A stretch of DNA of 64,000 bases. Origin: Syntrophales bacterium (GTDB lineage Bacteria > Desulfobacterota > Syntrophia > Syntrophales > UBA2210). The DNA lies in NCBI GenBank assembly GCA_963662405.2, contig CAXXKT010000001.1:2208001-2272000 (forward strand), in the 5' to 3' direction. Each line of letters starts with the position of its first letter. Positions within the stretch are counted from its first letter, which is position 1. Both the position numbers and the translations under genes were made by a program. This document shows positions 6,168 through 22,810 of this stretch, in pieces. The notes beneath the pieces were generated by a model. The model did no database searches and was not told the DNA's origin. It saw only the letters and a program-made list of their open reading frames with translations.

Positions 6168-6366
6168 ACACAAACCCAGGGCAACTTCCCACTTATAAAT
6201 CCCTGTTACCTGTCCAAAGAAACCGGACCACCTCTTAGATCTGCATAACATCCCAACCGAGTGAAAGAAAAATGGGATGATAACGATTGAATGTTCAGTG
6301 ACTATGTCTAAAATGTAAGCTGTTTTCGAGGGGTGTTATGCCGCACTTTTTGCGGTGTTTGCGATA

Positions 6367-6397
6367 TTATACGAGATCCGTATAAACATTGTTCAGG
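6367..6397 (+). other. Probable attI site (crossover G|TT at 6391)
   Basis: TATAAAC-ATT-GTTCAGG precedes the first cassette; no attC stem upstream; palindrome TTATACGAGATCCGTATAA adjacent. Confidence 0.6.
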
Positions 6398-6530
6398 GGG
6401 CGCTCCACGATAAGACCGCTCCACACCCCCTGAACATGCGGCGGCTGCCCTGAGCTGGTTCGCTCGGCGCGCAGCGCCTCCCGAACCAGCGGATGGACTT
6501 GTCCCCTGCGGGGCAGGTCATCCGCCGCAT
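6391..6530 (+). repeat. 140-bp ORF-less mini-cassette, copy 1 (at attI)
   Basis: GTTCAGGGGG...CCCCCTGAAC-ATGCGGCGG...CCGCCGCAT|GTT; 1 nt different from copy 3. Confidence 0.95.
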
Positions 6531-6533
6531 GTT

Positions 6534-7562
6534 GTGTGCCATATTAATATTTTGGAGTTTACTGTGGGGCAATTAGAAAATTATTCAGATTTACAAGAAA
6601 AAAATAAGCAATTTTCTCGTAAACAGGAATTTTCAATCATTGATACTATAGAAGAATTTGATAAGTGGTATAAAACTCTTAAGGAGAGTTCTTCGAAAGT
6701 ATCTTCAAAATCAAAAATCTCATCGGTAAATACAAATAAAATGTACAGAGGGATGAGTGAGTCAAAATACAAATTACTTACTTCTTCTCAAAGATTTTGG
6801 ATTTTAAATGAACTGGAACAATGGTGGCGACCCAAAAGATATTTAGAATTTATAGAAACTTTCGTTGATAACGCACGGAAAAAGTTATTATTCAATAAAG
6901 TGTTCGAATACTACAAACTGAAGCCCAACCAAAGAGATTTCCCAATATTAAGTATACTTCAGCATTATGGTGCACCGACTCCACTAATGGATTGGAGTTA
7001 TAATGTAGATGTAGCTCTGTATTTTGCCACTGAAGGGGTAAAGCCTTCTTCATCCAAAGATATAGAACTTTATTTTTCGATTTACGAAATAGATAAAAAC
7101 AAACAAATTAAGAATGAATTTAACAACTTATTAAATTGGCATAAGGGCAGCTTTCCAAAAATAAGTTCATTTTTTGGTTGGGAAGATAATCAAAATTCAA
7201 TTTTTTATATATCAGATTTTGAGGACAAACCTGAAAATCCACGGAGCTTTGTTGATGAAAGACCTATAACGACCTTCTATAATCAGAATATTATACCTCA
7301 AGAAGGGCTTTTTATTTTCAACCCTTTTCCTAAGAAGCCTTTAGAGAATTGTTTTAATACTGATCATGACGCAGATGGAAATAACTTGGATTTAATACCT
7401 TTTAGTTGTTTTAATATTAATAAAGACTTATCTGAATATATAAGACGAAAAATTAAACTCAAAGGTATTGATAACGCATTTATTTATCCTGATTTGAGAG
7501 TTTATTGTAATGGATTGATCGAAGAATTTTTAGACCAAGCAGCCGAGGCACACAACAAATAA
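6534..7562 (+). CDS. FRG-domain protein (cassette; start may be the GTG at 6562)
   Basis: MYRG...LQHYGAPTPLMDWSYNVDVALYFA...QEGLF. Confidence 0.85.
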   Translation: MCHINILEFTVGQLENYSDLQEKNKQFSRKQEFSIIDTIEEFDKWYKTLKESSSKVSSKSKISSVNTNKMYRGMSESKYKLLTSSQRFWILNELEQWWRPKRYLEFIETFVDNARKKLLFNKVFEYYKLKPNQRDFPILSILQHYGAPTPLMDWSYNVDVALYFATEGVKPSSSKDIELYFSIYEIDKNKQIKNEFNNLLNWHKGSFPKISSFFGWEDNQNSIFYISDFEDKPENPRSFVDERPITTFYNQNIIPQEGLFIFNPFPKKPLENCFNTDHDADGNNLDLIPFSCFNINKDLSEYIRRKIKLKGIDNAFIYPDLRVYCNGLIEEFLDQAAEAHNK

Positions 7563-7631
7563 ATGCAGGGGACGCAAAAAGCCGCGCCCCTGATTTTAGC
7601 GTTCGATGTATGATGATTATGGGGGCTGATC

Positions 7632-8393
7632 ATGGGTTTTGACAAATCCGAAATAGCACAACTTCTTGCAGATTGTGGCCGAAGGTGTTGCATCTGCGGC
7701 AGATTGCACAAAGTCCAGGTTCATCACATTGTCCCGGGCGATGATGATATAAGCAATGGTATTCCTCTTTGCCCAAATTGTCATGATGAGGCCCACACTG
7801 AGTACTCTACAGGTAGAACAACTCGAACATATACGCATGAAGAATTGAAGCTTCATCGCAAGAGAACAATTGAACAAGTGAAGCGAGAAGCAAAGTGGAA
7901 ACCAGGTGGTGCTGATTGGCGCAAAGACAAAAAGTTGGTAGCGTTTTTCGCACAATGTTTAGATCGACCTGCTTTCCGTACATACTTCCATCAGGAACTT
8001 AGTTTTTCTGCGTTCGATCAAGCAATGGAAGACACTATTGTAGCCCTAAACACGGGATATTGGAAAATGAGGGATGGCACTTTGATTAAAAGAGCAGAAG
8101 GAAAAGCTTGTGTCGTCAATCCATTGTGGCGTGGAAAGCTTGAACAAATTACTAATCTCATCGAAGATGTTCGGCGAAAGTTTGCAGACCTATTTGGATT
8201 TAACGAAATGCTTTTCCATTTGCGTGGGCCACGCCATTTACACAATCAAGAGTTGGAAGCTTATATGGAAGGTTTTCGAGGAAATAGAGACCTTGGTCAA
8301 TGGATGGATAAGAAACGTCAGGAAGCAATTGACGTCATGAACTCGATTCTTGAAGAGGTAGGAATGCAACCTCTCCGAGGGCTTCGAGAGTAA
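7632..8393 (+). CDS. HNH endonuclease-domain protein (cassette)
   Basis: CCIC...VHHIVP...NGIPLCPNCHDEAH. Confidence 0.85.
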   Translation: MGFDKSEIAQLLADCGRRCCICGRLHKVQVHHIVPGDDDISNGIPLCPNCHDEAHTEYSTGRTTRTYTHEELKLHRKRTIEQVKREAKWKPGGADWRKDKKLVAFFAQCLDRPAFRTYFHQELSFSAFDQAMEDTIVALNTGYWKMRDGTLIKRAEGKACVVNPLWRGKLEQITNLIEDVRRKFADLFGFNEMLFHLRGPRHLHNQELEAYMEGFRGNRDLGQWMDKKRQEAIDVMNSILEEVGMQPLRGLRE

Positions 8394-8448
8394 AAAACAT
8401 CGAACAAATTAATCCAGCGGACGGCTTACAGCCGCCGCTGATCATTGC

Positions 8449-8588
8449 GTTCAGGGGGCGCTCCGCGATAAGACCGCTCCACACCCCCTGAACATGCGGC
8501 GGCTGCCCTGAGCTGGTTCGCTCGGCGCGCAGCGCCTCCCGAACCAGCGGATGGACTTGTCCCCTGCGGGGGAGGTCATCCGCCGCAT
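8449..8588 (+). repeat. 140-bp ORF-less mini-cassette, copy 2
   Basis: Near-identical to copies 1 and 3; begins at the GTT of the HNH cassette attC. Confidence 0.95.
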
Positions 8589-8632
8589 GTTCGGCTACAA
8601 AAAGGAGGAATGATAAAAAGTCTTCATGAGCT

Positions 8633-8790
8633 GTGAATTGGGATACACTGTTTGAAACTTTATAGTTTTGGGCAGCAAGGCTACTGTTCGACATGTTTAC
8701 TGGTCTTCGAGACCGCAAAGGAGAATGAAGAGCTGTAGCCGCAACATTCAATGATCTTCGAGATCGAATAGGAGATTGGGACCAATTCAC
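8633..8790 (+). ncRNA. Putative bridge/seek RNA of the IS110 element
   Basis: Closing stem GTGAATTGG/CCAATTCAC; two TTCGA-capped hairpins flanked by segments matching the target (AAAGGAG) and donor (CATTC, ATAGGAG). Confidence 0.7.
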
Positions 8791-8826
8791 CTGACAGGCG
8801 CTGTCCAAGATGTGAGGAGGCGTTCT

Positions 8827-9939
8827 ATGAAGATGAGTATCGGGGTTGACCTTCACAAGACGCAGTTTACCGTTTGTTGTTTGAGTGAAGATCGGAGTGT
8901 TCAGGAGTCGGGCATCTACCCGACGACTGATCGAGGTTACCGGGCATTTATCATGAAGGTGTCCAACTGGAATGAGGGCGGTTACGAGGTCACGGCAGCG
9001 GTGGAATCAACAGGGAACACCCGACACTTTCGCAACCGGTTTTTGAAGGCGGGGATTGAGGTCAAGATAGTGAACACCTTGAAATTCAAGGTTGTAAATG
9101 AGTCAGTAAAAAAGACTGACAAGCATGATTCCCGCACATTGGCTGAGTTTCTTGAGAAAGATATGCTTCCCGAGTCCATTCTTTGTTCGCAGGAAAGCGA
9201 GGACATTCGAAGGCTTCTCAAGTCACGTTCTGTTCTGGTGAAAGCTTTGGTATCCTTGAAAAACCAGATACACGGTTTATTGCTTGGATATGGGATAGAG
9301 AGTCGGCGGGGACAGCTGCAGAGCAAAAAAGAAAGGCAGCGAATCCTTGACGGTCTCGCGGACCATAGGAGTTACGGAAACGCTGCCCGAGCGGTAAAAC
9401 CGCTTCTTGGTACAATAGACCAAATTGCATCCGAGGTCAAAGGACTTGAGCGCGTATTATCTGATCTTGTTTCTGAAGACGAGGATGTTGCTCTGTTGCA
9501 AACGATTCCTGGCGTTGGAATAATAACAGCAGCGACGATTCGGGCTTATACCGATGACATCAACCGATATGAGAGCGCCAAGCAGTATGCTGCTCATGCC
9601 GGTTTGGTACCATGGGTTCAAAACTCCAACAAGACCATTCGCCATGGTCATATTACCAAGCGAGGCCCCGTGGAACTGAGGACGGCTTTTGTGCAAATGG
9701 TAATGGGGATGCTACGGCTTCGGAATAAAACCGATGGATATTGGCTTATGTACAAATACAAAGCCATGAAAGAGAACAAGGGAACCGGGAAGAGCGTAAT
9801 AGCGACGGCGCGAAAGATGAGCACTATTGTATATGCCATCTTGAAGAAGGGGGAGCCGTTTGATCCATCGAAAATGCTGCCAGACCCGAAATATGTAGAG
9901 ATGAGTAAGGTTGCGAGGTGTTATGCTTTGGCCGTTTAA
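8827..9939 (+). CDS. IS110-family DEDD recombinase/transposase
   Basis: IGVDLHK, VEST, KTDKHDS, TIPGVG, GLVP..QNS, GHITKRG. Confidence 0.95.
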   Translation: MKMSIGVDLHKTQFTVCCLSEDRSVQESGIYPTTDRGYRAFIMKVSNWNEGGYEVTAAVESTGNTRHFRNRFLKAGIEVKIVNTLKFKVVNESVKKTDKHDSRTLAEFLEKDMLPESILCSQESEDIRRLLKSRSVLVKALVSLKNQIHGLLLGYGIESRRGQLQSKKERQRILDGLADHRSYGNAARAVKPLLGTIDQIASEVKGLERVLSDLVSEDEDVALLQTIPGVGIITAATIRAYTDDINRYESAKQYAAHAGLVPWVQNSNKTIRHGHITKRGPVELRTAFVQMVMGMLRLRNKTDGYWLMYKYKAMKENKGTGKSVIATARKMSTIVYAILKKGEPFDPSKMLPDPKYVEMSKVARCYALAV

Positions 9940-10002
9940 ATTTTAACCATGGGCCTGTTTGACAGGCTCTCCATGAATTGACTTTTTATAGGAGTTAAAA
10001 AT

Positions 10003-10677
10003 ATGACAATAAGCGATGCACTAATGATAATAGCCGTTTTAGCTGCTCCTTTCCTAGCGGTTTTTGCACAAAGACAAATTGATTTATGGCGGGAACAAAG
10101 ACAAAGAAAATTATGGGTTTTTAAAACACTTATGGCCACACGTGGTCGAACTTTGTCTCCAGAGTATGTACAAGCTCTAAACATGATAGAACTTGAATTC
10201 CAAAAATCTTCTGAGAAACCTATCCGCGATGCATGGAAAGAGTACCATGATCATCTAAACTCTTATCCTCGTGAAGGTGAAAATCAGAAGGAGAGAGCTG
10301 CTGTGTGGGATGAAGCGTTGGCAAAACTGCTTGCTAATCTTCTTATTAAGATGAGTAAGGCTTTCTCATATGAGTTTGACGTAGTACAAATAAAGAAAGG
10401 GGCTTATTCACCTAAAGGTCATGCAACCACAGAAATCGAACTTCAGTTACTTAGGCGTTTTGCACTAGAATGGCTTGCTGGTGAAAGGAAGGTGTCTGTT
10501 TCAATAGTGCCTAAAGACGATGAGTCCGCTAAACAAGGTCAAGTATTTATGGCTGGTTTATCGGGCATTATCGAAGGCCAAAAACAAATAAAAGTTGAAT
10601 TGGTTTCTCAAATGGATGGTGATGACAAGCCGAACAATACTAATTCAGCCGACGCAAAAAGCCGCGCGGCTGATTAG
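10003..10677 (+). CDS. Hypothetical cassette protein with an N-terminal TM helix
   Basis: RBS AGGAG; hydrophobic N-terminus; FKTLMATR...VQALNMIELEF; stop lies inside attC. Confidence 0.8.
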   Translation: MTISDALMIIAVLAAPFLAVFAQRQIDLWREQRQRKLWVFKTLMATRGRTLSPEYVQALNMIELEFQKSSEKPIRDAWKEYHDHLNSYPREGENQKERAAVWDEALAKLLANLLIKMSKAFSYEFDVVQIKKGAYSPKGHATTEIELQLLRRFALEWLAGERKVSVSIVPKDDESAKQGQVFMAGLSGIIEGQKQIKVELVSQMDGDDKPNNTNSADAKSRAAD

Positions 10678-10681
10678 TGCC

Positions 10682-10821
10682 GTTCAGGGGGCGCTCCGCG
10701 ATAAGACCGCTCCACACCCCCTGAACATGCGGCGGCTGCCCTGAGCTGGTTCGCTCGGCGCGCAGCGCCTCCCGAACCAGCGGATGGACTTGTCCCCTGC
10801 GGGGCAGGTCATCCGCCGCAT
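10682..10821 (+). repeat. 140-bp ORF-less mini-cassette, copy 3
   Basis: Begins at an attC GTT and is followed by GTTATAGC. Confidence 0.95.
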
Positions 10822-10846
10822 GTTATAGCAATTTAATGATAAAAAT

Positions 10847-11998
10847 ATGGTAGATACGCAAAAATTAAATAGGTCATTAGATTTAATATTGAAAGATTTT
10901 ATTCCTGATGATGAAGCCAATCAACACTGGAGAGATCCGAATGCCGGTCACCTAGCAAATATCAAATTTGAAGATAAGCCTCCTCCGTATATTGTTTTTA
11001 TTATATTTGTATACTTAAAAAAGTACTCATTTGGAGGCCAATGGGAAAAAGTTAATTGGGAAATACCAATTAAGTATAAAAATGTACCCATGATGTTAGC
11101 ACATAAAAAATTTGGGTTCCAAATTCTAACATATTCTGGCGTACCTAAGGATAATCAAATAGCTATTGAAGCACTAAATAAAATAAAAAAAGCAATCCCA
11201 ATAGCAGAAAAACTAATTCAACCGACTATAAAAAGTCTCGTAGATTCTGGAAAAATCACTATTTCAAACGATTATTATCAGCTTCGATCACGCTATGAAT
11301 ATTTTAGAAATGAAGCCGAGTCTCATTTATTAAACAATGAAAAAGAAGACTTTGATTTCAGTTCCTTTCAAGACCACTTAACCGCACTTAATTCTTGGTT
11401 ACAGCAAAAAAATAAAGGCGCCAATTATGCTTTTGCCATGATTGATTCATACTTTAGTCTGCTTGAGCACGTATTAGTATTGATAAAACCTTTCATCACG
11501 ATTTCTGAAACTGAAACTGAATTATCAAAATTTGTAGGACAATACTGGGGTGATAAATATAAAAAACTCTTTGATATAACAAAGGGTGGTCTTCCAAAAG
11601 TTCATTATGATGCGCTTTACGAAGTAAAAGAACGTTATCGGAACATCGCATCACATGGTAATTTTGAAAAAGGTGGTGGTTCGTTTTTAGTCCATATGCC
11701 ACACATAGGTGCGATTCCAATGTCACTAACCCAAAATAAATCACATTTTACTTTTTCAACGCCAAATGAACTTGAATTTGCAGCAATATGTAGTGTTTTT
11801 GATAGTTTTGATAACTTTCTTGATAGTGCCAGTATGACAAAATATGGGATGTTGTATATTAAGAGTGGCAATCATGTCATATTTGATGATGATACAAAAA
11901 GCACCTATTTAAATGCGATGAAATCTGAAAAAGATTTCAATGAATTTATTGAGTATATGGAGCAGCAATTTAATGATGCTTTAAATATGGATTGGTAA
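10847..11998 (+). CDS. Hypothetical cassette protein with a HEPN-like RxxxxH motif
   Basis: 383-aa AT-rich ORF bounded by GTTATAGC/GCTATAAC; RNIASH in a helical context. Confidence 0.75.
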   Translation: MVDTQKLNRSLDLILKDFIPDDEANQHWRDPNAGHLANIKFEDKPPPYIVFIIFVYLKKYSFGGQWEKVNWEIPIKYKNVPMMLAHKKFGFQILTYSGVPKDNQIAIEALNKIKKAIPIAEKLIQPTIKSLVDSGKITISNDYYQLRSRYEYFRNEAESHLLNNEKEDFDFSSFQDHLTALNSWLQQKNKGANYAFAMIDSYFSLLEHVLVLIKPFITISETETELSKFVGQYWGDKYKKLFDITKGGLPKVHYDALYEVKERYRNIASHGNFEKGGGSFLVHMPHIGAIPMSLTQNKSHFTFSTPNELEFAAICSVFDSFDNFLDSASMTKYGMLYIKSGNHVIFDDDTKSTYLNAMKSEKDFNEFIEYMEQQFNDALNMDW

Positions 11999-12157
11999 AG
12001 CTATAACAAATAATTCAACTCGGAATGTCTAAAAGCGCTTTCGCGCTTCTAGACATCCGGTTAATTATGCTGTTAGCAATGAAAAAGCAGAGTATTTTGA
12101 GGTTGTTTTTGCATAATAATAGTTTAACAGATTAATTCCATTTTTTCGGAGAGTTAA

Positions 12158-12487
12158 ATGAAGTGGATACTTTTATCAATTGCTATATTGTCAGAACTTG
12201 GTGGTTCAACATGTATGAAGTTATCAAATGGATTCACCAATATTCCAGCTTCAATTATGACATTTGTCTTTTGGGCTATCTCATTTAGTATTTTCATATT
12301 TGCGCTTAAACACTTTGACTTAAGCTTTATTTATGCTCTTTGGGCCGGCGTTGGAATTTTATTGGTATCAGTAATTGGTATGACCTATTTCAAAGAACCA
12401 GTAAACGTAATGAAGGTTATTTCAATTCTTATCATTGTTGTAGGTGTTGTGATGCTCAACTTGAGCGAAATTTTAACAAATCAATAG
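12158..12487 (+). CDS. SMR-family small multidrug efflux protein (cassette)
   Basis: 109 aa, four TM segments, W..L.IAI.SE, KLSNGF, YALWAGVG. Confidence 0.92.
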   Translation: MKWILLSIAILSELGGSTCMKLSNGFTNIPASIMTFVFWAISFSIFIFALKHFDLSFIYALWAGVGILLVSVIGMTYFKEPVNVMKVISILIIVVGVVMLNLSEILTNQ

Positions 12488-12624
12488 ATTAAAAGATTGC
12501 TAACAAAGCCATTAAGGCGGACCGCAATCGCACTCGGTACGGGCAAGTACACCTTTCATGGCAAACAAGTTGTTAACTCAAAATAGGTGCAGCGGCTGCT
12601 TATGGCCAGAGTTAGCGATGAAAT

Positions 12625-13164
12625 ATGAAATATGTTAATTCAAAGATGGTTGATATTTCAGAAGTAGTAATTCGGGAGTTAAAAAATGAAGAATTTTGGA
12701 TTCTTGAAGAATTACTATATGAGGCGATCTTTCAACCTGATATTCCGAATCCAATTCCACGCGGTATAATTGATACCCCAGAAGTTAGAGTATATATTAA
12801 GGATTTTGGACAAAAAGAAGATGATTATTGTCTAGTAGCTGGTATAAATGAACAAATTTTGGGAGGTGTTTGGGTTCGAGTATTAGCTGGTGACATCAAA
12901 GGATTTGGTAACATAGATAGTGAAACTCCTGAATTCGCGATATCAGTTTTCAAAGAATTTCAAAATCAAGGAATTGGCAAGCTTCTCATGCGGGAGATGA
13001 TCTACTACTTGATTAATAAAAAATACAGTCAAGCGTCTCTGAGTGTTCAAAAAGAGAATTATGCGGTCAAGATGTACAAAGAGTTTGGATTTAAGATATT
13101 AACTGAAAAAGGTGAAGATTATTTAATGATACTGAAATTAGTAAACAATCCAAGGAATAAATAA
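12625..13164 (+). CDS. GNAT acetyltransferase (cassette)
   Basis: V.KEFQNQGIGK, N.AVKMYKEFGF. Confidence 0.9.
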   Translation: MKYVNSKMVDISEVVIRELKNEEFWILEELLYEAIFQPDIPNPIPRGIIDTPEVRVYIKDFGQKEDDYCLVAGINEQILGGVWVRVLAGDIKGFGNIDSETPEFAISVFKEFQNQGIGKLLMREMIYYLINKKYSQASLSVQKENYAVKMYKEFGFKILTEKGEDYLMILKLVNNPRNK

Positions 13165-13260
13165 GAATCCGCTAACAAAAGGCTGAAGTCCGACCATGCC
13201 CGCCAAAAAGCAGCGACCATGGCGGCTTAGCCACGTGTTGGGCTACAAAAAGGAAATAAT

Positions 13261-13977: not shown

Positions 13978-14054
13978 TAAAAGCCCAACAAAATTTTCAA
14001 CCCGCCTTTCCCCGCAGCTCGTTCCTCGCTCTGGGAAAAGCGGGTTAAACAGGC

Positions 14055-14194
14055 GTTCAGGGGACGCTCCGCGATGAGATCGCTCCACGCCCCCTGAACA
14101 TGCGGCGGCTGCCCTGAGCTGGTTCGCTCGGCGCACAGCGCCTCCCGAACCAGCGGATGGACTTGTCCCCTGCGGGGCAGGTCATCCGCCGCAT
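14055..14194 (+). repeat. 140-bp ORF-less mini-cassette, copy 4
   Basis: Five substitutions relative to copy 3. Confidence 0.95.
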
Positions 14195-14913
14195 GTTAGG
14201 GCTTAAGAAAAAATGTCACAATTATCCTACGCACGAATAATGCTGGAGCAAATGGGGATACCATTTGAGGATATTCCAACATCAGATGAAAAAATGAAAA
14301 AGGAGGCGGATTTTCTAGCAAGTTTTGGTGATTCCAGAGTGCTTATCGAAGAAAAACTAAAAGAGGACGATCTGAGCTATCTTTCAGTTAGAGGACAGGA
14401 ATTAGAGGCTGGAGGAATCCATGAGCATTCTGTTCCACTGACACGAGATGAGACTATTTCGGGCATAATAAGGCATGCTGCGAAACAACTCAAGTCCTCA
14501 TCAGACAAGCCACATGATTTTCGATTATTGTGGTTTACTGCAACCGGCGTAGCAGCCGAGGCCAAAAGTGAACAGTTCATGGCAACACTTTATGGCCGAA
14601 CAAATATCATAGAGCGCGGCGCTAATGGCTACAAAAGGTGTTACTATTTCCGATATAGTGACTTTTATCGACGTTCAGCAATAATAGATGGTGCAGTAGC
14701 TGCATTCGTGGAGGATGCTTCCATTACTTTGAAACTCTGCTTGAATTCTTTATCCCCGAGATATTTAAACTTAAAACACTCAAGTGTTGTTAAACCTTTC
14801 AGGACTGCTGTTGAAGATCCCTTGGAACTTGAAACCAGAGGGAGTGCTTTTATATTAGATAACGATATTGATCGAAAAGACGAACAGAAACTGCTTGAGT
14901 ATCTAAAAAATAA

Positions 14914-15649: not shown

Positions 15650-15818
15650 AAAAATAAATATAAAACTGAGCCCTTAATGACAATTGACCTCGGCTACACG
15701 AGTGCTTCAATACTATTGCCGGAGGGTGAGCCCTAACCTTTTGCTTCACCGGATTCGGGCCAAAAAGCGGGCCTCTACGGTGAGCAATGCGTTATAACTA
15801 TGAGATGCGAGAAGTGAA

Positions 15819-16085
15819 CTACGATAGATTTCTGTAAATATCTTTTCGGTGGCCAATTTTGACGACCAAAATGACAAGGATATCATCTTGGATTTCATAA
15901 ACGATCCGATAATCTCCAACCCGAACTTTATGAAAAGGGTTGTTTCCCTTCATTTTTGTCGTTTCGGGGCTTGGAAGATTTTCTGCAAAGCTATCAATCT
16001 TCTCAACTATTCGCACTCTGTCAACTTTTGGAATCTTCTTAAGGGTTTTCGCAGCGGAATTCTTAATCTCAATTCGGTAGCTCAA
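15819..16085 (-). CDS. RelE/ParE-family toxin (inverted TA cassette)
   Basis: KVRVGDYRIVYEI.D..LVILVVKIGHRKDIY. Confidence 0.92.
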   Translation of the reverse strand: MSYRIEIKNSAAKTLKKIPKVDRVRIVEKIDSFAENLPSPETTKMKGNNPFHKVRVGDYRIVYEIQDDILVILVVKIGHRKDIYRNLS

Positions 16086-16333
16086 AGTTCAAGCTCCTTT
16101 TTAAACTCCTCCCAAGGTATTGGGTCGCCGGGTTCATTTTTGGCTTTCCAGGTATCTTCAATATCAATCTGTTCTTCTAACTCTTGTAACAATTTGAGTT
16201 CTTTTATTGATACTATTGCAGCTAATGGTTCGCCACGGCGTGTCAGAACAAATGATTCATTTCCAAAGGCTACTCGATTTAAAATATTAGAGAATTTTTT
16301 TCTGGCATCTGCGGTCGTTATTTTGTTAAGCAT
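16082..16333 (-). CDS. Phd/YefM-family antitoxin
   Basis: TADARKKFSNILNRV...VLTRRGEPLAAIVS; overlaps the toxin start. Confidence 0.9.
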   Translation of the reverse strand: MLNKITTADARKKFSNILNRVAFGNESFVLTRRGEPLAAIVSIKELKLLQELEEQIDIEDTWKAKNEPGDPIPWEEFKKELEL

Positions 16334-16552
16334 AACTTTGCTCCAATTGTTTGTTTTGTACACCAAGTACAGATGGTACCACATTCGATCGGTTTGTCAA
16401 CAAATTCTATTTAATATAATAATAATCGGTTATAACATCACCATTCACAAAGGACTCGCAGGGGCGGACCGCCTTAGTTTTAGCATATTTTAGTGTTGAA
16501 CTCTCATTTGCGAAGTCCGATAACCCTGCTCGCCTGTGATGGTGGGCGTTAA

Positions 16553-17011
16553 ATGGAAAAAATGATAGAATTTAACGAAATCTCTCCAGACTTGGTTCCT
16601 CAAAAACTGTTACTAGAAGCGGATCCATCAATTGAACGAGTAAATCAATATTTGGAAGGCTCATTATGTTATGCGGCTGTAATTCAGAAAGAAATAGTTG
16701 GAGTCTGTGTTTTAAATTCCATAGACAAAAACAGAATTGAGTTATTCAATATCGCTGTCTTACCGGAAAACCAGAAATCAGGTATTGGGTCACAATTACT
16801 CCAATTTGTTCTGGACAGTGTTAGAGAGAAAAATTTTGAATCAGTGGAATTAGGGACTGGTACGTTTGGTTATCAATTGACATTTTATCAACGTTTTGGA
16901 TTTCGAGCGGACTCAATACTCAAAGACCATTTCATCAACAATTATGATGAACCAATTTTTGAAAATGGTATCCAGCTTAAAGACATGTTACGACTTATTT
17001 TGAAGCTGTGA
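16553..17011 (+). CDS. GNAT acetyltransferase (cassette)
   Basis: LLLEADPS, NIAV...QKSGIG, FYQRFGF. Confidence 0.9.
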   Translation: MEKMIEFNEISPDLVPQKLLLEADPSIERVNQYLEGSLCYAAVIQKEIVGVCVLNSIDKNRIELFNIAVLPENQKSGIGSQLLQFVLDSVREKNFESVELGTGTFGYQLTFYQRFGFRADSILKDHFINNYDEPIFENGIQLKDMLRLILKL

Positions 17012-17072
17012 TAAGAACCATTTAACAAATGCGCTTTCAGCCGACGCAAAAACCTCGCGGCTGAAACGGGAC

Positions 17073-17211
17073 GTTCAGGGGACGCTCCGCGATAAGACCG
17101 TTCACGCCCCCTGAACATGCGGCGGCTGCCCTGAGCTGGTTCGGTTGGCGCGTAGCGCCTCCCGAACCAGCGGATTGACTTGTTCCTTTTGGGGTAGGTC
17201 ATCCGCCGCAT
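17073..17211 (+). repeat. ORF-less mini-cassette, copy 5 (139 bp)
   Basis: About a dozen changes relative to copy 3; outer arms intact. Confidence 0.93.
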
Positions 17212-17235
17212 GTTCAGGGTTACAAGGAGAGAATA

Positions 17236-17676
17236 ATGAAAATTTCAAGAGTTACAATACTAACGCTTGGCGTAGCCGATTTGGGTAAAGCGACAGAATT
17301 TTATGAGGCTGTACTTGGCATCCCTCCAAACAAATCTTTTGATGGAATCACTTTCATTGAGCTTCCAGGAACATGGATTGCTCTTTATCCTCTTGAAAAA
17401 CTTGCAGAAGATATTTCACCTGATGTTTCTGTTACTCGCAATGGGTTTAGTGGAGTTACGCTTGCCCACAACGCCGGAAGCAAGGAGGAGGTTTTAGAAA
17501 TTGTGCGGCGCGCGGAGTCAGCAGGTGCTAGGATTGTTAAGGAGCCTAAAGATACTGGATGGGGTGGTTTCAGTGGATACTTTGCCGACATTGATGGCTA
17601 TTACTGGGAGGTAGCTTGGGGACCAATGTTTGAGTTCACAGAAAATGGCGAAATGACATTTAAAAGAAAACCATAA
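17236..17676 (+). CDS. VOC/glyoxalase-family protein (cassette)
   Basis: LTLGVADL.KA.EFY, TLAHN, WGGFSGYFADIDGYYWEVAW. Confidence 0.92.
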   Translation: MKISRVTILTLGVADLGKATEFYEAVLGIPPNKSFDGITFIELPGTWIALYPLEKLAEDISPDVSVTRNGFSGVTLAHNAGSKEEVLEIVRRAESAGARIVKEPKDTGWGGFSGYFADIDGYYWEVAWGPMFEFTENGEMTFKRKP

Positions 17677-17771
17677 CAACTGGCTCAACAGCGGACTTGC
17701 CCAAAACGCTTGCGCGTTTTCAGCCAGCCGGTTAGGCGGAGCGTTGGGTCCAGAAGAAGAGGAATACAGAC

Positions 17772-18908
17772 ATGCGCACATTTCTCCAATCACTTGTCGT
17801 TGTTTTGCTGCTTTCAACATCCGCCTGTGCCATGGAGCCTGCCACACCGGAACTGGACAAGACGTTTGATGGCCAGTCCAGTGACCTTGAATCAACAGCT
17901 ATTGTGCCGACTCTCGATGCGGAGATTGCCGATGGACAGAATGCCGTGTGGTGTTCGTCATTCCTCACTGCATGGAAATCACTAGCCACAAACATTGTGA
18001 GAGCTGATATCTCCCTTGAAGGTTCGCCGCAGACAGCGGTCGCCCTAAACAATGCAGATGACCCGACACCTCACAATCCAGAAGGATCAACATATGTCGC
18101 GACCGGTTGGAACAACAAAGGCGTACTTGAGAAGATCCGAAAGGAACTCAAGGTTGCCTTCCCAGGCAAACCAGCTCCCACTTTCCCGGATATCATGCCT
18201 GACTCCTTCGTCGCATACTCATACCTTGAAGCGAACGTGAAGTTCGACCTTCCTTACTTCCAGAACCGCAAGCCTCTGGAGTTCACCGATTCGCAAGGAG
18301 AAAAGACGAAGCTCACATCGTTCGGCATCCGGCCGGAGGATGACTACGCTTACTATAAGCTTCGGAGTCAACCACGTATTCTGTTTCGCAAGGGTGGTCC
18401 AGGTGAAGAAGTTGAGTTGGAGTTCGCGATAGACCTTTGTGCCGCATCCTCGCCGAGCCAGGTAGTAGTTGCGCGGATCAAACGAGAACCCACCCTAGCC
18501 AAGGCGCTTGACCGAATTAGAAAGGAACTGAAGGGATTCGAGAAACTGAAACAGAAGAATCCAGACTATACGAAGTATCTGGAGAATATCGGGCCCAATG
18601 ATGTCCTCTTGGTTCCTGATCTCTTCTGGGAGATTTCCCATCATTTGTCCAACCTTGAAGGCAAGCAATTCCTGAACGATCCTCTGAAGGGACAGCGTCT
18701 CGATGTAGCTCAGCAAGACATCCTCTTCCGTCTGGATCGCAGTGGAGCAGAGCTGAAATCTGAATCGAAGATGTTCTGTGCCCCCATCCCTACATACTTC
18801 GTGCTCGATCGTCCTTTCCTAATCTACATGAAGAACCGGAATGCAGAAGAGCCGTACTTTACCATGTGGGTCGATAACGCAGAATTACTAACGCCATGGA
18901 CGAAGTGA
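17772..18908 (+). CDS. Secreted or lipoprotein hypothetical protein with a serpin-like C-terminus (cassette)
   Basis: Signal peptide ending TSAC; FRLDRSGAE...FVLDRPFLIYM. Confidence 0.65.
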   Translation: MRTFLQSLVVVLLLSTSACAMEPATPELDKTFDGQSSDLESTAIVPTLDAEIADGQNAVWCSSFLTAWKSLATNIVRADISLEGSPQTAVALNNADDPTPHNPEGSTYVATGWNNKGVLEKIRKELKVAFPGKPAPTFPDIMPDSFVAYSYLEANVKFDLPYFQNRKPLEFTDSQGEKTKLTSFGIRPEDDYAYYKLRSQPRILFRKGGPGEEVELEFAIDLCAASSPSQVVVARIKREPTLAKALDRIRKELKGFEKLKQKNPDYTKYLENIGPNDVLLVPDLFWEISHHLSNLEGKQFLNDPLKGQRLDVAQQDILFRLDRSGAELKSESKMFCAPIPTYFVLDRPFLIYMKNRNAEEPYFTMWVDNAELLTPWTK

Positions 18909-18995
18909 GAAGACAGGATCCAACCAGAAAATGCAGAGTATTGTCGCGTCGCCGCGCCAAACCCTGGTTTTGATCGTTCGATTTTCAGAGATACT

Positions 18996-19053
18996 TGTAC
19001 AACTTACTGTACAATTTACTGGACAAATCATTTTTTACTCTCTATACTTGTAC
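18996..19053 (+). promoter_or_regulatory. Likely YefM-type operator repeats
   Basis: TGTACA at 18996 and 19008, TGTAC at 19049; TGTACA is the known E. coli yefM operator core. Confidence 0.55.
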
Positions 19054-19082
19054 GGTAAACAGAACAACTGTGGAGGATAAAA

Positions 19083-19337
19083 ATGAGAGTCATAAATTTT
19101 AGTGAAGCAAGAAATAAACTGAAAGCAATATTAGATCAAGTTAACGATGATGCTGACTACACCGTAATTACGCGAAGAGACGCTGAAGACGCAGTAGTAA
19201 TGTCCTTGGATACTTTCAACAGTTATCTTGAAACATTTCATCTTTTAAAATCTCCTGCCAACGCTGAGCATCTTGCGAAATCTATCGCTCAATATAAAAA
19301 TGGTGAAGCAACTGAAAGAGAAATGATCAATGAATAA
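19083..19337 (+). CDS. yefM: YefM antitoxin
   Basis: FSEARNKLKAILDQV..D...ITRR...VVMSL...ETFHLLKSPANA.HL. Confidence 0.93.
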   Translation: MRVINFSEARNKLKAILDQVNDDADYTVITRRDAEDAVVMSLDTFNSYLETFHLLKSPANAEHLAKSIAQYKNGEATEREMINE

Positions 19338-19593
19338 AGGACTCGCGTGGACTGATGAAGCCTGGAAAGACTACATCTATTGGCAAACTCAAGACAAAAA
19401 AACATTCACGCGTATCAATAGGCTCCTTGATGACATTAAACGAAATAACCCATTTAAAGGTATCGGAAAACCGGAACCTCTAAAAGAAAACCTGAGCGGA
19501 TTGTGGTCCAGAAGGATTGATGATACAAATCGTTTAGTCTCTGCAGTCGATGAAGTATATATTACCGTTATTTCTTGTAGATATCATTATTAA
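19330..19593 (+). CDS. yoeB: YoeB/Txe toxin
   Basis: AWKDYIYWQTQDKK, GIGKPEPLK, WSRRI, C-terminal RYHY. Confidence 0.95.
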   Translation: MNKGLAWTDEAWKDYIYWQTQDKKTFTRINRLLDDIKRNNPFKGIGKPEPLKENLSGLWSRRIDDTNRLVSAVDEVYITVISCRYHY

Positions 19594-19668
19594 AATCGAA
19601 CAATTTGCTACAGGCGACAGCGTAAAAACCACGCTGCCTCTGAGCAACACGTTTGGCAGTAAGATTAT

Positions 19669-20214
19669 ATGAAGATAAGAAATGCATCCGATATTGATAA
19701 GCGAGATATCTCAAGATTGCATATTTTATCAATCAAGAGACTGTGTAGCAAACACTATACCCTTGAGCAGTTGAACGCCTGGACAAGTATTCTTACTCCT
19801 TCTGTTTATGATCAGGCACTCGAAGAAAAGATATTTTTAGTTGCCCATGATTCAAACCAGGATTTAATGGGCTTGGGCATTCTTGATATCCAAAATTCTG
19901 AAATCAGCGCAATCTATATCCACCCAGATGCTGCGGGAAATGGAATTGGGACAGAAATTCTTTGCAAACTTGAAGCAATAGCTCGAAATCATAATGCCGT
20001 TCAAATTACCGTTCATTCCACATTAAATGCAAAAGGCTTTTATCAGAGGCATGGCTATTTCGATCATGGTTTGACCTTTCACCGTTTGCCGAACGGATCA
20101 AAGCTTGAGTGTGTACGAATGTTTAAAGATTTACAAACGGATGTCGAACAACGGGAAAAAGCAGCCGCGCCTCATGCCTGGCGTTCTGCGGCGACGGACA
20201 AGTCGGAGGAATAA
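19669..20214 (+). CDS. GNAT acetyltransferase, reading through a damaged attC
   Basis: IYIHPDAAGNGIG, STLNAKGFYQRHGY. Confidence 0.85.
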   Translation: MKIRNASDIDKRDISRLHILSIKRLCSKHYTLEQLNAWTSILTPSVYDQALEEKIFLVAHDSNQDLMGLGILDIQNSEISAIYIHPDAAGNGIGTEILCKLEAIARNHNAVQITVHSTLNAKGFYQRHGYFDHGLTFHRLPNGSKLECVRMFKDLQTDVEQREKAAAPHAWRSAATDKSEE

Positions 20215-20220
20215 GCTCTT

Positions 20221-20811
20221 ATGGATGAATCAAATGCGTTGAAGATATATACAGACCGGCTTGAATTAGTGGCGGCGACCCTCGACCATGTTCGGGCCGA
20301 ACTGGAATCACCGGAAAGTCTGGCTGCCCAATTGAATGCTGACGTCGGACCCGACTGGCCGCCAGGTGAATACGATCGAGATGCTCAAGAGTTCTTCCGT
20401 GACTGTCTTCAAAAGGGTGGTTCAGCGGTTGTTGGGTGGTACTGCTGGTATGCAATTCGCAATGATGAGCATTCTGTGTTGATTGGATCGGGCGGGTATC
20501 TTGGTCTGCCGTGTGAGAATGGTGAAGTTGAGATAGGTTTTTCAATTGTAAAGAATTGGCAACGTGCTGGTTACGCAACCGAAATGGCCGGAGCCCTTGT
20601 CGCCAATGCACTCGCTGATTCCCGAGTTCAAAAGATCATTGCTCATTCAACACCCCGGAATTTGGCATCGTGCAAGGTGCTTGAAAAGGTCGGATTCAAA
20701 GTCGTTGGCACCGACGAGAAAACGGGGAATATTCGTTTTGAAATTCATCGAAATGGTCTGCCGCATAACAAAACTCATTCAGCCAACGCAAAAGACAGCA
20801 CGGCTGATTAG
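20221..20811 (+). CDS. RimJ/RimL-type GNAT acetyltransferase
   Basis: TDRLEL, EIGFSI...WQRAGYATE, N.AS.KVLEKVGF. Confidence 0.9.
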   Translation: MDESNALKIYTDRLELVAATLDHVRAELESPESLAAQLNADVGPDWPPGEYDRDAQEFFRDCLQKGGSAVVGWYCWYAIRNDEHSVLIGSGGYLGLPCENGEVEIGFSIVKNWQRAGYATEMAGALVANALADSRVQKIIAHSTPRNLASCKVLEKVGFKVVGTDEKTGNIRFEIHRNGLPHNKTHSANAKDSTAD

Positions 20812-20889
20812 CGTCGGTGGGTGTTCACGTCGGCGATAAAAATATGCCAAACAGGAATTTATTGAAAGAAACATCGAAGATGAAGTCAA

Positions 20890-21651
20890 ATGAATAATTG
20901 GTTTACAATAGATCAAATTGACAGAGACACTTTTATCATAAGCGAATATCGCCACTGGGAAGAAACACATTGTTATCTTTTAAATGGCTCTGAAAGCAGT
21001 TTGCTGATTGATACTGGGCTTGGAATCTGTAACATCTATGATGAGGTTATCAGGCTCACTGACAAGCCGGTCACTGCCGTAGCTACTCACATTCACTGGG
21101 ACCATATTGGCGGACATGGATTTTTCCCGGACTTTTACGCGCATGTGGCTGAACTGAACTGGCTTAACGGAGAATTTCCACTGACGATGGAGGAGATTAA
21201 AGGCATGGTCGTTGACCGTTGCGACTTGCCGGAAGGTTATGACGTAGGCAAATATGAGTTCTTTCAGGGTAATCCGACAAGAGTGCTGAAGGATGATGAT
21301 GTAATTGATATAGGGGACCGCCTTGTTCAGATAGTCCATACGCCCGGCCATTCGCCAGGACATATGTGTTTTTGGGAAAGGGAGCGCGGGTATCTTTTTA
21401 CCGGCGACTTGGTTTATAAACACACGCTGTTTGCCTTCTTTCCGTCCACTGACCCGGAGGCGTACCTCAATTCCTTGAAACGGGTATCGGCGTTACCGGT
21501 CAAGCATCTGTTTCCTGCACATCACACGCTGGATATTCAGCCTGAGATTCTGGGCAGAATGCGTGATGCCTTTTGGCAGTTGAAGGCTGAGGATAAATTG
21601 CACCATGGCACTGGCAGGTTTGACTATGGCGACTGGGCAGTATGGCTATAA
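20890..21651 (+). CDS. MBL-fold metallo-hydrolase (cassette)
   Basis: THIHWDHIGG, HTPGHSPGH, TGD, PAH. Confidence 0.92.
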   Translation: MNNWFTIDQIDRDTFIISEYRHWEETHCYLLNGSESSLLIDTGLGICNIYDEVIRLTDKPVTAVATHIHWDHIGGHGFFPDFYAHVAELNWLNGEFPLTMEEIKGMVVDRCDLPEGYDVGKYEFFQGNPTRVLKDDDVIDIGDRLVQIVHTPGHSPGHMCFWERERGYLFTGDLVYKHTLFAFFPSTDPEAYLNSLKRVSALPVKHLFPAHHTLDIQPEILGRMRDAFWQLKAEDKLHHGTGRFDYGDWAVWL

Positions 21652-21949
21652 AAGGAAAGACACCTACGCTAAGCCCGCCGCAAGCAGCGAGGAATGCGCT
21701 CGCTGTTCAATGCACAGCCGAAAGGAAGCATGTATGCGCCCCTATCGATAGAGGAACAATTCGGACCAGATCCGAGCACGGTAGAGCGCACTTCTAACCA
21801 ATCAATTCAGGTGACGGGAAGGGGCTGCGGGGCTCTAATGAGGGAAACACATTGATCCGCGCCTGATATCAGACGTTCGCTATAAAAACATTCTTTGACG
21901 CTGTGATGTTATAGTGCTATAGTCACACAACGTCAGGGGAGGTGATATT

Positions 21950-22183
21950 ATGGGAACAGCGGCAATGCGCGCAACAGTGTACTTAGATCCGGAATTGCAC
22001 AAAGCATTACGGTTGAAAGCGTTAGAAACCACGCAGTCAATCTCGAAACTTGTGAATGATGCCATTAAAAAATCCCTTGCCGAGGACGCTGAAGATATTG
22101 AGGCGTTTGAAGCAAGAGCAAAAGAGCCACTAATCAGCTATGAAGCTATGATCAAGAGGCTTAAAAAAGATGGGCGAATATAA
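21950..22183 (+). CDS. CopG/RHH-type antitoxin
   Basis: RATVYLDPELHKALRLKA...S.LVNDA; upstream of and overlapping a RelE. Confidence 0.8.
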   Translation: MGTAAMRATVYLDPELHKALRLKALETTQSISKLVNDAIKKSLAEDAEDIEAFEARAKEPLISYEAMIKRLKKDGRI

Positions 22184-22427
22184 AATCTTCTTTAAAAAAT
22201 CTGTTGAAAAAGACTTTCACTCCATCCCCAAAAAAGATTTAAAGAAGATTCTCTTACGTATTGAAACACTGGCGAAAGATCCGAGGCCACCGGGCCACGA
22301 GAAGCTATCCGCCCAAGAGAGATATCGTATTCGCCAAGGCACGTACAGAATTATATATTCCATTCAAGATCAAGAGCTTTTGGTATGGGTGGTTAAAGTT
22401 GGGCATCGCAAAGATGTTTATCGCTGA
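22170..22427 (+). CDS. RelE/ParE-family toxin
   Basis: YRIRQGTYRIIYSIQD..L.V.VVKVGHRKDVYR. Confidence 0.92.
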   Translation: MGEYKIFFKKSVEKDFHSIPKKDLKKILLRIETLAKDPRPPGHEKLSAQERYRIRQGTYRIIYSIQDQELLVWVVKVGHRKDVYR

Positions 22428-22466
22428 AGCGAACCTGTCACAAGGGCCGCTCCGGCTCAGCTCGTC

Positions 22467-22607
22467 GTTCAGCGGACGCTCCGCGATAAGACCGCTCCAC
22501 GCCCCCTGAACATGCGGCGGCTGTCCTGAGCTGGTTCTCTCGGCGCGCAGCGCCTCCCGAACCAGCGGATGGACGTGTTCCCTGCGGGGTAAGGTCATCC
22601 GCCGCAT
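22467..22607 (+). repeat. ORF-less mini-cassette, copy 6 (terminal GTT lost)
   Basis: About nine changes relative to copy 3; ends CCGCCGCATG|AAATCC. Confidence 0.93.
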
Positions 22608-22701
22608 GAAATCCTTCCAAGATAAAGAGGTTGAGAAAATATTCGGCAGGCAAATTTCAAAAAAGTTGCCGCAGGATATTCAGCGCAGGGCTCAAGGCTA
22701 A
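22606..22701 (+). pseudogene. HigB-type toxin N-terminal remnant
   Basis: Translates to MKSFQDKEVEKIFGRQISKKLPQDIQRRAQG*, typical of HigB/killer-protein N-termini. Confidence 0.7.
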
Positions 22702-22743
22702 TCGATAGAACGATGGTCTCGAAGGCCCAACGCTGAATACATT

Positions 22744-22803
22744 GTGCAGGGGGCGCTCCACGATAATCCTGCACCATTGCCCTGAACATGTAGCGGCTTT
22801 CCT
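22744..22803 (+). repeat. Decayed, truncated copy 7 of the mini-cassette
   Basis: GTGCAGGGGGCGCTCCACGATAA...CCCTGAACATGTAGCGGCT. Confidence 0.8.
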
Positions 22804-22810
22804 GCTCCGA

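What the first reader, a model, noticed from the sequence alone, without database searches (positions are those of the whole stretch)
6391..22803. A 140-bp gene-less mini-cassette repeatedly punctuates the integron array
Seen: the same non-coding unit occurs at 6391, 8449, 10682, 14055, 17073 and 22467, with a decayed copy at 22744. Every full copy starts exactly at a GTT crossover, copies 1-5 end exactly before the GTT of the next cassette, and there is no target duplication. Gene cassettes keep their own, different attC sites, so this unit is an extra cassette and not the array's standard attC. Its cargo is only 45 bp, itself a hairpin (GTTCAGGGGG/CCCCCTGAAC). It divides the array into blocks of 1-7 gene cassettes. 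Known: ORF-less cassettes exist in integrons, but I do not recognise this family or such repeated use. Inference: either a selfish minimal parasite of IntI (an integron analogue of a MITE), or a functional spacer such as a structured RNA, processing/termination signal or block-excision handle.
Basis: partly seen in the sequence, partly recalled or inferred. Interest (0 to 1): 0.9.

Follow-up and report, generated by a model that had tools for sequence, protein, structure and literature searches.

The report
Gene-less attC-only integron mini-cassette family
The repeated 140-base unit is a tiny mobile integron cassette that carries no gene and consists only of its own recombination site closed by a short cap; it has been inserted again and again into this bacterium's gene-capture array and turns up in the same form in sediment metagenomes.

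Summary
There are six full copies (91-100% identical) and one decayed copy in a genuine integron array: intI at 3885-4937, attI ending at 6391, array running to about 22800.

Each copy starts at a G|TT crossover. Copies 1-5 end at the next one. There is no target duplication.

The true cargo is 15-31 nt. Folded as an excised single-stranded circle, the element is predicted to form one fully paired rod, that is, a capped attC.

A 124-nt form and the 140-nt form occur in 18 distinct metagenome or MAG contexts. Each starts and ends at a GTT, mostly directly after another cassette's attC hairpin. In three intI-linked arrays the element follows attI in the first slot.

Resident copies decay with distance from attI, and truncated relics exist. 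No Rfam family, promoter or terminator matches the unit.

Best reading (0.6): a non-autonomous, selfish mini-cassette moved by IntI. A regulatory role is not excluded.

Paralogous non-coding cassettes, with the same selfish-or-functional question, were described in Vibrio in 2006. This scan has also noted similar attC-only cassettes on other DNA. I therefore rate it a new variant of a known kind.

The parts
3885..4937 (+). [quoted passage not shown]
   Evidence: TIGR02249 integron integrase 471 bits against a cut-off of 265, covering profile 1-315/315; Pfam Phage_integrase plus SAM_4
4962..6235 (+). IS3-family insertion sequence lying between intI and attI
   Evidence: rve/HTH_21 transposase. 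Both ends are repeated at more than 10 other genome sites. The homologous locus L026 is contiguous without it
6236..6393 (+). attI region; crossover at G6391|T6392
   Evidence: Homologous to the region between the intI stop and the first cassette in L026 (76% over 162 nt; alignment)
6391..6533 (+). Mini-cassette copy 1, first slot (cassette proper 6392-6531, 140 nt). Cap hairpin with R'/R'' pairing 6391-6435, R'' box CCTGAAC 6429-6435, attC body 6436-6530
8449..8591 (+). Mini-cassette copy 2
10682..10824 (+). Mini-cassette copy 3
14055..14197 (+). Mini-cassette copy 4 (5-6 differences from copies 1-3)
17073..17214 (+). Mini-cassette copy 5 (13-14 differences from copies 1-3)
22467..22609 (+). 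Mini-cassette copy 6 (11-12 differences from copies 1-3; terminal GTT lost, so it can no longer recombine at its right end)
22744..22805 (+). Decayed, truncated mini-cassette at the distal end of the array, abutting the 3' end of the minus-strand enoyl-CoA hydratase gene (22811-23518)
   Evidence: 62 nt at 77%, E 5e-6; alignment; Pfam
6532..8449 (+). Two gene cassettes (FRG-domain, HNH), each with its own 53-54-nt attC
8590..10682 (+). DUF6680 gene cassette with its own 56-nt attC, interrupted at its ribosome-binding site by an IS110-family element (8601-9994)

Best explanation
The unit is a non-autonomous, gene-less integron cassette that consists only of a recombination site.

Anatomy. It has an attC of about 105 nt: R'' box CCTGAAC, a fully paired stem, and a branched tip. 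Its beginning (TTCAGGG...) and the sequence before R'' pair with each other and are closed by a short loop.

Proposed mechanism. IntI, supplied in trans by the integron, cuts at G|TT on both sides. The released single-stranded circle (124 or 140 nt) folds into one continuous rod. That rod is a ready-made folded attC, which IntI can re-insert at attI. Excision after replication leaves a copy in one daughter chromosome, so re-insertion multiplies the element. Repeated rounds, alternating with the capture of gene cassettes at attI, give the punctuated array.

Shown here: cassette anatomy, exact boundaries, presence in many unrelated arrays, first-slot occupancy, and age-graded decay.

Inferred, not shown: IntI dependence, the circle intermediate, replicative gain, and the absence of benefit to the host.
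For: 1. Cassette anatomy. The boundaries are G|TT. The circular R' (GTTCAGG) is the exact complement of R'', and the complementarity extends to 10-13 bp.

2. Neighbours are intact cassettes. For 4 of the 5 window copies that end in GTT, and for 4 of 18 external contexts, the next cassette's first 8-mer has its exact complement downstream. Many external contigs end too early to test. Chance expectation is about 0.05 per 3 kb.

3. Mobility as a unit. There are 26 external matches in 25 loci, giving 18 distinct flanking contexts: 15 of the 124-nt form and 3 of the 140-nt form. All start and end at GTT.

4. Upstream context. A stable hairpin ends within 12 nt of the unit's first GTT in 16 of 26 contexts, against 118 of 622 control GTT sites. 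Six of the 26 follow attI-like sequence instead, by my reading of the flanks.

5. First-slot occupancy. The unit sits directly after attI in all three arrays where an intact co-oriented intI is in view: the window, L026 (IntI 80% identical) and L020 (75%). It also follows an orphan attI at C2:287957.

6. Decay with distance from attI. Copies 1-3 differ from each other at 1-2 positions. Copy 4 differs from them at 5-6, copies 5 and 6 at 11-14, and the last copy is 77% identical over 62 nt and truncated.

7. Relics. Two copies have lost R'' (C1:881638, C2:55084; a deletion between GCTGC repeats). One has lost the attC body (C1:27364).

8. Folding. The circular bottom strand folds into two abutting stems with no unpaired base between them. 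The bottom strand is more stable than the top in 23 of 25 members, by a mean of 2.8 kcal/mol.

9. The same attC body ends ORF-bearing cassettes in L042, L028 and L030.

10. Feasibility. Synthetic cassettes with only 60 bp between attCs excised at the highest rates in Loot et al. 2017 (PMC5371416, passages).

11. Not coding. The two forms differ by 16 nt, and 1-2-nt indels occur among copies.
Against: No recombination event was observed. The public runs were available only as contigs, which break inside the repeats, so no circle junction or empty site could be seen.

The attC is atypical. The region between the R and L boxes is fully paired, and the predicted fold has two 1x1 mismatches instead of single bulged bases. 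Its competence for IntI is therefore assumed, not shown.

In the array, R'' is predicted to pair with the cassette's own start. This could hinder the canonical attC fold needed for excision.

First-slot occupancy and conservation of the stems would also be expected of a selected regulatory element.

The external set was found with an exact 21-mer from the unit, so its apparent conservation is inflated.

Copies 1-3 could be kept alike by gene conversion rather than recent insertion.
Confidence: 0.6

Rival explanations
1. A selected regulatory spacer. As RNA or DNA structure, the mini-cassette would modulate expression of neighbouring cassettes. It could act as an insulator or polarity element because it is an untranslated stable hairpin, as an mRNA 3'-end protector, or as a promoter cassette. 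It would be kept in the first slot for that reason.
For: The unit is strongly structured: z -4.1 on the top strand and -5.1 on the bottom strand against shuffles. Two base pairs next to the R box covary.

It occupies the first slot in 3 of 3 arrays with an intact intI in view.

Gene-less cassettes in Vibrio and Treponema have proven promoter activity (Blanco et al. 2024, PMC11014356, abstract and passages; review PMC8876359, passages).
Against: None of the 53 sigma-70-like sites and none of the 11 terminator-like sites lies inside any of the six units. One minus-strand site overlaps the first 5 nt of copy 1.

There is no Rfam match.

The Vibrio promoter cassettes are 491-666 bp with 335-515 bp of non-attC DNA. 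This unit has 15-31 nt.

Distal copies accumulate substitutions in stems and lose their ends, and truncated relics persist. This argues against selection on resident copies.

The structure is equally required for attC function.
Confidence: 0.22
2. Passive debris. Each copy would be the independently decayed remnant of a gene cassette that carried this attC type and lost its gene by deletion. Alternatively, the copies would have spread within the array by homologous recombination or unequal crossing-over rather than by IntI.
For: The same attC body occurs on ORF-bearing cassettes. Deletions between short repeats do occur in this family. Three upstream attCs are alike, so some matches extend beyond the unit.
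Against: Independent deletions would not give the same cap (GGACGC-TGC-GCGTCC) and identical boundaries in 15 distinct external contexts, nor the same 31-nt cap in 8 own copies and 3 external ones.

The flanking cassettes are unrelated at every copy, which unequal crossing-over does not produce.
Confidence: 0.08
3. A non-integron mobile element, such as a MITE or a satellite of another transposase (for example the adjacent IS110-family element), that targets attC sites.
For: Copy 2 lies 10 nt upstream of an IS110-family element. IS families that target attC are known (recalled, not checked here).
Against: The IS110-family element has 9 copies, and all 9 are inserted in Shine-Dalgarno-like AGGAG sequences a few bases before start codons. 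None lies in the unit or in an attC.

The unit has no target duplication and no transposon-like ends. Its ends are the integron crossover.
Confidence: 0.03

Closest known systems
Paralogous non-coding cassettes of Vibrio chromosomal integrons (Boucher et al. 2006, PMC1382264; passages read)
   Same: Both are ORF-less cassettes with a normal attC. Both are repeated within one array (6 to 45 copies in Vibrio), closely conserved between related hosts and absent elsewhere. The same two explanations (selfish or integron-regulating) were proposed for them.
   Different: The host lineage and attC type differ (sediment Thermodesulfobacteriota-type MAG, intI co-oriented with the array). This unit has essentially no DNA besides the attC (15-31 nt), and the whole excised circle is predicted to be one hairpin rod. 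I could not see the sizes of the Vibrio families in the passages read.
Gene-less 'promoter cassettes' (Blanco et al. 2024, PMC11014356, abstract and passages; Treponema ORF-less cassettes, cited in review PMC8876359)
   Same: Gene-less cassettes scattered through arrays. Some sit in the first slot, including in integrons whose integrase lies on the cassette strand.
   Different: Those are 491-666 bp with 335-515 bp outside the attC and have measured promoters. This unit is 124-140 nt with no promoter-like match.
Canonical attC sites (for example VCR and attCaadA7; features partly recalled)
   Same: R''/R' boxes with AAC/GTT, an imperfect palindrome of about 105 nt, a branched variable tip, a more stable bottom strand, and a position at the 3' end of cassettes.
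   Different: No unpaired central spacer and no clear single-base bulges in the predicted fold. R'' also has a perfect local partner at the cassette's own start.
MITEs and REP elements
   Same: Short, structured, non-coding, multi-copy, and dependent on an enzyme encoded elsewhere.
   Different: No target duplication and no genome-wide intergenic spread. All own-genome copies lie at attC or attI junctions.

Membership tests
Integron cassette | Bounded on both sides by the G|TT crossover of R' boxes within an array next to intI/attI | tested here: met
   Five of 6 window copies meet it on both sides; copy 6 has lost the right GTT. IntI by TIGR02249.
Integron cassette | The start of the cassette (TTNNNN) is complementary to its own R'' box, so that the excised circle regenerates R' | tested here: met
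   GTTCAGG/CCTGAAC, extended to 10 bp here and 13 bp in the 124-nt form.
Integron cassette | The same unit is found between different neighbours in different arrays (mobility) | tested here: met
   8 own full copies plus 18 distinct external contexts.
Integron cassette | Excision and insertion catalysed by IntI | not testable with these tools
   Only contigs of public runs were available; they show no joints that can be trusted.
attC site | R''(..AAC) and R'(GTT..) boxes with paired L boxes; length about 55-140 nt | tested here: met
   105 nt; a continuous stem AACATGCGGCGG/CCGCCGCATGTT; 2 covarying pairs. The length range is recalled.
attC site | Unpaired central spacer and extrahelical bases that mark the bottom strand | tested here: inconclusive
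   The predicted fold has no unpaired spacer and has two 1x1 mismatches (A/G on the bottom strand, C/T on the top). The bottom strand is more stable in 23 of 25 members. The features themselves are recalled from the literature.
Promoter cassette | Carries a promoter that drives neighbouring cassettes | tested here: inconclusive
   No sigma-70-like match inside any unit. This is a consensus scan only, and no RNA data were available.
MITE | Terminal inverted repeats of a parent transposon and a target-site duplication | tested here: not met
   No duplication at any copy. The adjacent IS110-family element is unrelated.
REP/BIME-type repeats | Dispersed in intergenic regions genome-wide | tested here: not met
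   The covariance model finds 10 clear hits in the 3.8-Mb genome, all at attC or attI junctions.
Any Rfam RNA family | Match to a curated covariance model | tested here: not met
   0 matches at E up to 1 in window 3500-23500, both strands.

The most novel reading that the evidence does not exclude
attC-only mini-cassettes may be portable recombination sites that seed new gene cassettes.

IntI can insert cassettes at non-att genomic sites; I saw this claim only in the abstract listing of bioRxiv 10.1101/2022.09.11.507474. Two such insertions flanking any gene would make that gene excisable together with one attC, much as two insertion sequences make a composite transposon. This would address the long-open question of where cassettes get their attC sites. 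It would also explain why this attC body is shared by cassettes with unrelated ORFs.

Nothing here shows it. All own-genome copies sit at att junctions, and every upstream neighbour examined has its own attC or is an attI.
Probability: 0.06. Interest if true: 0.85.

Novelty: new variant of a known kind. Interest (0 to 1): 0.5.

Why it matters
Integron arrays are usually read as stores of adaptive genes. Here about a quarter of the slots in one array are held by an element that is nothing but a recombination site. The same element heads three arrays that have an intact integrase next to them.

If it is a parasite of IntI, it is about the smallest conceivable one. It would give a clean substrate for measuring what an attC alone needs in order to move. 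Its graded decay would also give a built-in clock for the order of cassette capture.

If it is selected, it points to structure-based control of cassette expression that needs no promoter.

This scan has noted similar attC-only cassettes in unrelated genomes. Together they suggest a recurrent class that my searches of the literature did not find described as such.

Tried and rejected
- Rfam, 3500-23500, both strands, E up to 1: nothing.
- BLAST of the unit in 60 relatives (7 of the same genus, 29 others of the same family, 24 of the same order): 0 hits.
- Covariance model R1 in 150 genomes of the class: only G132 (62 bits; a related mini-cassette with the same cap but another R box) and G003 (three identical 182-nt analogous elements, 38 bits).
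- Exact 21-mer in 185,579 species genomes: 3 loci, one of them (L014) only a 23-nt chance match.
- Viral contigs (two patterns) and plasmids: 0.
- Sequencing runs: no RNA holder listed. The four runs laid were contigs only, and the contigs stop inside the units (at 6504, 8478, 10796, 17114 and 22522). They neither bridge a unit nor show circle or empty-site joints. The joints listed had short sides (20-59 nt) at attC look-alikes and were not used.
- My first crude attC-pattern finder missed many sites and gave false hits. I replaced it with the chain-following test and a fold-based control test.
- Wobble-type counts in the alignment gave no strand bias that could separate a DNA role from an RNA role (read).
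- A link to the neighbouring IS110-family element was rejected.
- First-slot enrichment within the own genome alone is not significant: 2 of 8 full copies. Of the 6 attI-like sites I examined, 2 are followed by the unit.
- An association of the unit with the short CAGCSGACGC-type attC upstream (3 of 5 window copies) was noted but is too weak to use.
Full report
**Observation**

The window holds a real integron. The ORF at 3885-4937 (+) matches the integron-integrase model TIGR02249 at 471 bits (cut-off 265) over the whole profile. [quoted passage not shown]

A multi-copy IS3-family element (about 4962-6235) sits between intI and attI. The homologous metagenome locus L026 is contiguous without it.

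From G6391 onward there is an array of co-oriented, mostly small genes: FRG, HNH, DUF6680, SMR, several GNATs, SIMPL, glyoxalase, Phd-YoeB, an MBL-fold protein and RHH-ParE. Each is followed by an attC-like hairpin ending in GTT. The array ends at about 22800, against a minus-strand enoyl-CoA hydratase gene.

The repeat finder gives one family of six 144-nt copies at 6390, 8448, 10681, 14054, 17071 and 22466. BLAST gives 91-100% identity, plus a 62-nt, 77% relic at 22744.

**Cassette status**

Every copy begins at GTTCAG immediately after the previous cassette's attC. Copy 1 begins immediately after attI. Copies 1-5 end CATG|TT.

I followed the array from attI by one rule: a cassette's first 7-mer must reappear as its exact reverse complement, followed by a hairpin and a GTT. 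This walks through the first 8 cassettes without a miss. It gives the unit as a 140-nt cassette with a 105-nt attC.

For 4 of the 5 copies that end in GTT, the next cassette's first 8 bases have their exact complement at that cassette's own attC, 1018-2039 nt downstream. There is no target duplication.

The pairing extends to 10 bp.

The rest of the unit is a stem (ATGCGGCGG/CCGCCGCAT) that continues directly from the R box and carries two smaller hairpins. Folded as a circle, the bottom strand gives two abutting stems with no unpaired base between them. This is a single rod with the R box in its middle. The element is therefore an attC closed by a cap, and nothing else.

**Distribution in the own genome**

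The genome has 3 contigs and 3.8 Mb. The unit or its model finds 10 clear places:
- The six window copies.
- A full copy at C1:20650(-). It follows an attC-like hairpin in a second array that starts at a frameshifted intI (C1:30608-31649; 66-82% identity in two frames).
- A full copy at C2:287815(-), directly after a copy of that second integron's attI.
- Two 96-nt relics (C1:881638, C2:55084). Each follows an attC, and each has lost R'' through a deletion between two GCTGC repeats.

A further relic at C1:27364 keeps only the cap of the shorter form. It follows a cassette 100% identical to the one upstream of the C2:55084 relic.

No copy lies away from an att junction.

**Distribution elsewhere**

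- 0 of 60 relatives have the unit by BLAST.
- An exact 21-mer from the unit finds 2 real loci among 185,579 species genomes: a Thermodesulfobacteriota MAG and a MAG labelled as an archaeon. It also finds one 23-nt chance match.
- The same 21-mer finds 28 metagenome contigs. Of these, 23 hold a mini-cassette and 5 hold only the attC body.
- Three of those five (L042, L028, L030) have an ORF of 129-279 aa ending 56-205 nt upstream, so the attC body is also an ordinary attC of ORF-bearing cassettes.
- After removing 8 duplicates, the 26 external mini-cassette matches fall in 18 distinct flanking contexts.
- Fifteen of the 18 carry a shorter form: 124 nt between crossovers, with the cap GTTCAGGGGACGC-TGC-GCGTCCCCTGAAC, a 13-bp stem and a 3-nt loop.
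- Three of the 18 carry the window's form, which is the short form with 16 extra bases in the cap.
- All 18 start and end at GTT.
- A stable hairpin ends within 12 nt of the first GTT in 16 of all 26 contexts (8 own plus 18 external), against 118 of 622 control GTT sites. By my reading of the flanks, six of the 26 follow attI-like sequence.

The external set was fished with an exact 21-mer, so its sequence conservation is inflated.

A covariance model run on 150 genomes of the class found two further things:
- G132 has a related mini-cassette with the same cap core but a different R box.
- G003, a congener, has three identical copies of a different 182-nt element with the same two-hairpin plan, each after a different attC.

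Viral contigs and plasmids gave nothing.

**Position and age**

An intact IntI homolog on the same strand is in view in L026 (80% identity) and L020 (75%). In both, as in the window, the mini-cassette is the first cassette after attI.

Within the window, copies 1-3 differ from each other at 1-2 positions. Copy 4 differs from them at 5-6 positions, and copies 5 and 6 at 11-14. Copy 6 has lost its GTT, and the last copy is a 77% stub.

Under the standard model, new cassettes enter at attI (recalled knowledge). On that model this is the pattern of repeated insertion over time, with no maintenance of resident copies. Gene conversion among the proximal copies is an alternative for the near-identity of copies 1-3.

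**Function**

- No Rfam family matches.
- No sigma-70-like promoter or intrinsic terminator lies inside a unit.
- The unit cannot code, given the 16-nt and 1-2-nt indels among copies.
- The bottom strand, which recalled knowledge says is the strand integrons recombine, folds more stably than the top in 23 of 25 members.
- Two base pairs next to the R box covary: AT/AT, AG/CT, GTG/CAC.
- These features fit an attC that must fold. They do not exclude a role as RNA.
- No expression data could be had.
- The public runs were contigs that break inside the repeats. They confirm the unique cassette sequences but not the order across the repeats.
- Each copy has its own flanks, and the distal ones have their own substitutions, so a collapse or duplication artefact is unlikely.

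**Mechanism proposed**

IntI cuts at G|TT on both sides. The freed strand closes into a 124/140-nt circle that is already a folded attC and is re-inserted at attI. Because excision follows replication (recalled model), one daughter keeps the copy, so the element multiplies.

Loot et al. 2017 found that synthetic cassettes with only 60 bp between attCs excise at the highest rates when the bottom strands are on the lagging-strand template (PMC5371416, passages). Extreme shortness may therefore be an advantage.

Points against this mechanism:
- The attC lacks the unpaired spacer and the bulged bases of textbook sites.
- In the array, R'' prefers to pair with the cassette's own start, which could hinder excision.

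**Comparison with what is known**

- ORF-less cassettes are known (review PMC8876359).
- Boucher et al. 2006 described paralogous non-coding cassette families in Vibrio arrays, with up to 45 copies and conservation between species. They posed the same selfish-or-functional alternative (PMC1382264).
- Blanco et al. 2024 showed promoters in Vibrio gene-less cassettes of 491-666 bp (PMC11014356).
- Five full-text searches found no description of a cassette made only of an attC.
- Earlier notes of this scan report similar attC-only cassettes in other genomes. Those notes are unchecked leads.

**Verdict**

The feature is real. It is a new, extreme variant of a known kind.

Noticed in passing
window 8601-9994: An IS110-family element (NF033542, 229 bits) is present in 9 copies in the genome. 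All 9 are inserted inside a Shine-Dalgarno-like AGGAG a few bases before a start codon. The element carries GGAG-like ends that would rebuild a ribosome-binding site.
   Followed up: partly
own genome C1:236364-236425, C1:1120395-1120458, C1:1947651-1947688, C2:287957-288119: Orphan copies of the attI regions lie without an adjacent intI. The one at C1:236423 is followed by at least two cassettes by the chain rule.
   Followed up: partly
own genome C1:30608-31649 (minus strand): A second integron integrase gene, split over two frames (66% and 82% identity to the window's IntI), has its own attI type and an array running down to about C1:20650.
   Followed up: partly
L044, L045, L046 (genome G003, same genus): A different 182-nt gene-less two-hairpin element occurs in three identical copies, each after a different attC. 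Its R box reads GATAAGC/GCTTATC (GAT/ATC instead of GTT/AAC), while its right end is a normal GTT.
   Followed up: partly
window 17212-17227: The cassette after copy 5 (glyoxalase) begins TTCAGGG like a mini-cassette. Its own R'' (ACCATAAC) would instead predict GTTATGG, and a GTTA follows 7 nt later. This may be a 7-nt remnant of another mini-cassette. Unexplained.
   Followed up: no
window 22609-22743: Between copy 6 and the terminal relic lies a fragment that reads like the N-terminal part of a HigB/RelE-type toxin gene (by eye, not tested). The 30 nt before the relic weakly resemble attI, so the array may end in a decayed attI plus mini-cassette.
   Followed up: partly
window 14907-15206 and 61641-61940: A 300-nt repeat (99% identical) belongs to an IS1595-family element. 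One copy lies inside the cassette between mini-cassette copies 4 and 5.
   Followed up: no
window 10633-10684: The short attC of the DUF6680 cassette (CAGCCGACGCAAAAAGCCGCGCGGCTGA type) attracts contigs with many different continuations in runs X1 and X3. Depth is about 173 against 6-40 for most neighbouring bins, so this attC type is very common in that community.
   Followed up: no
own genome C1:21530-21650 and C1:23328-23448: A 121-nt repeat (98% identical) in the second array consists of an AT-rich stretch plus an attC. It may be another paralogous short cassette tail.
   Followed up: no
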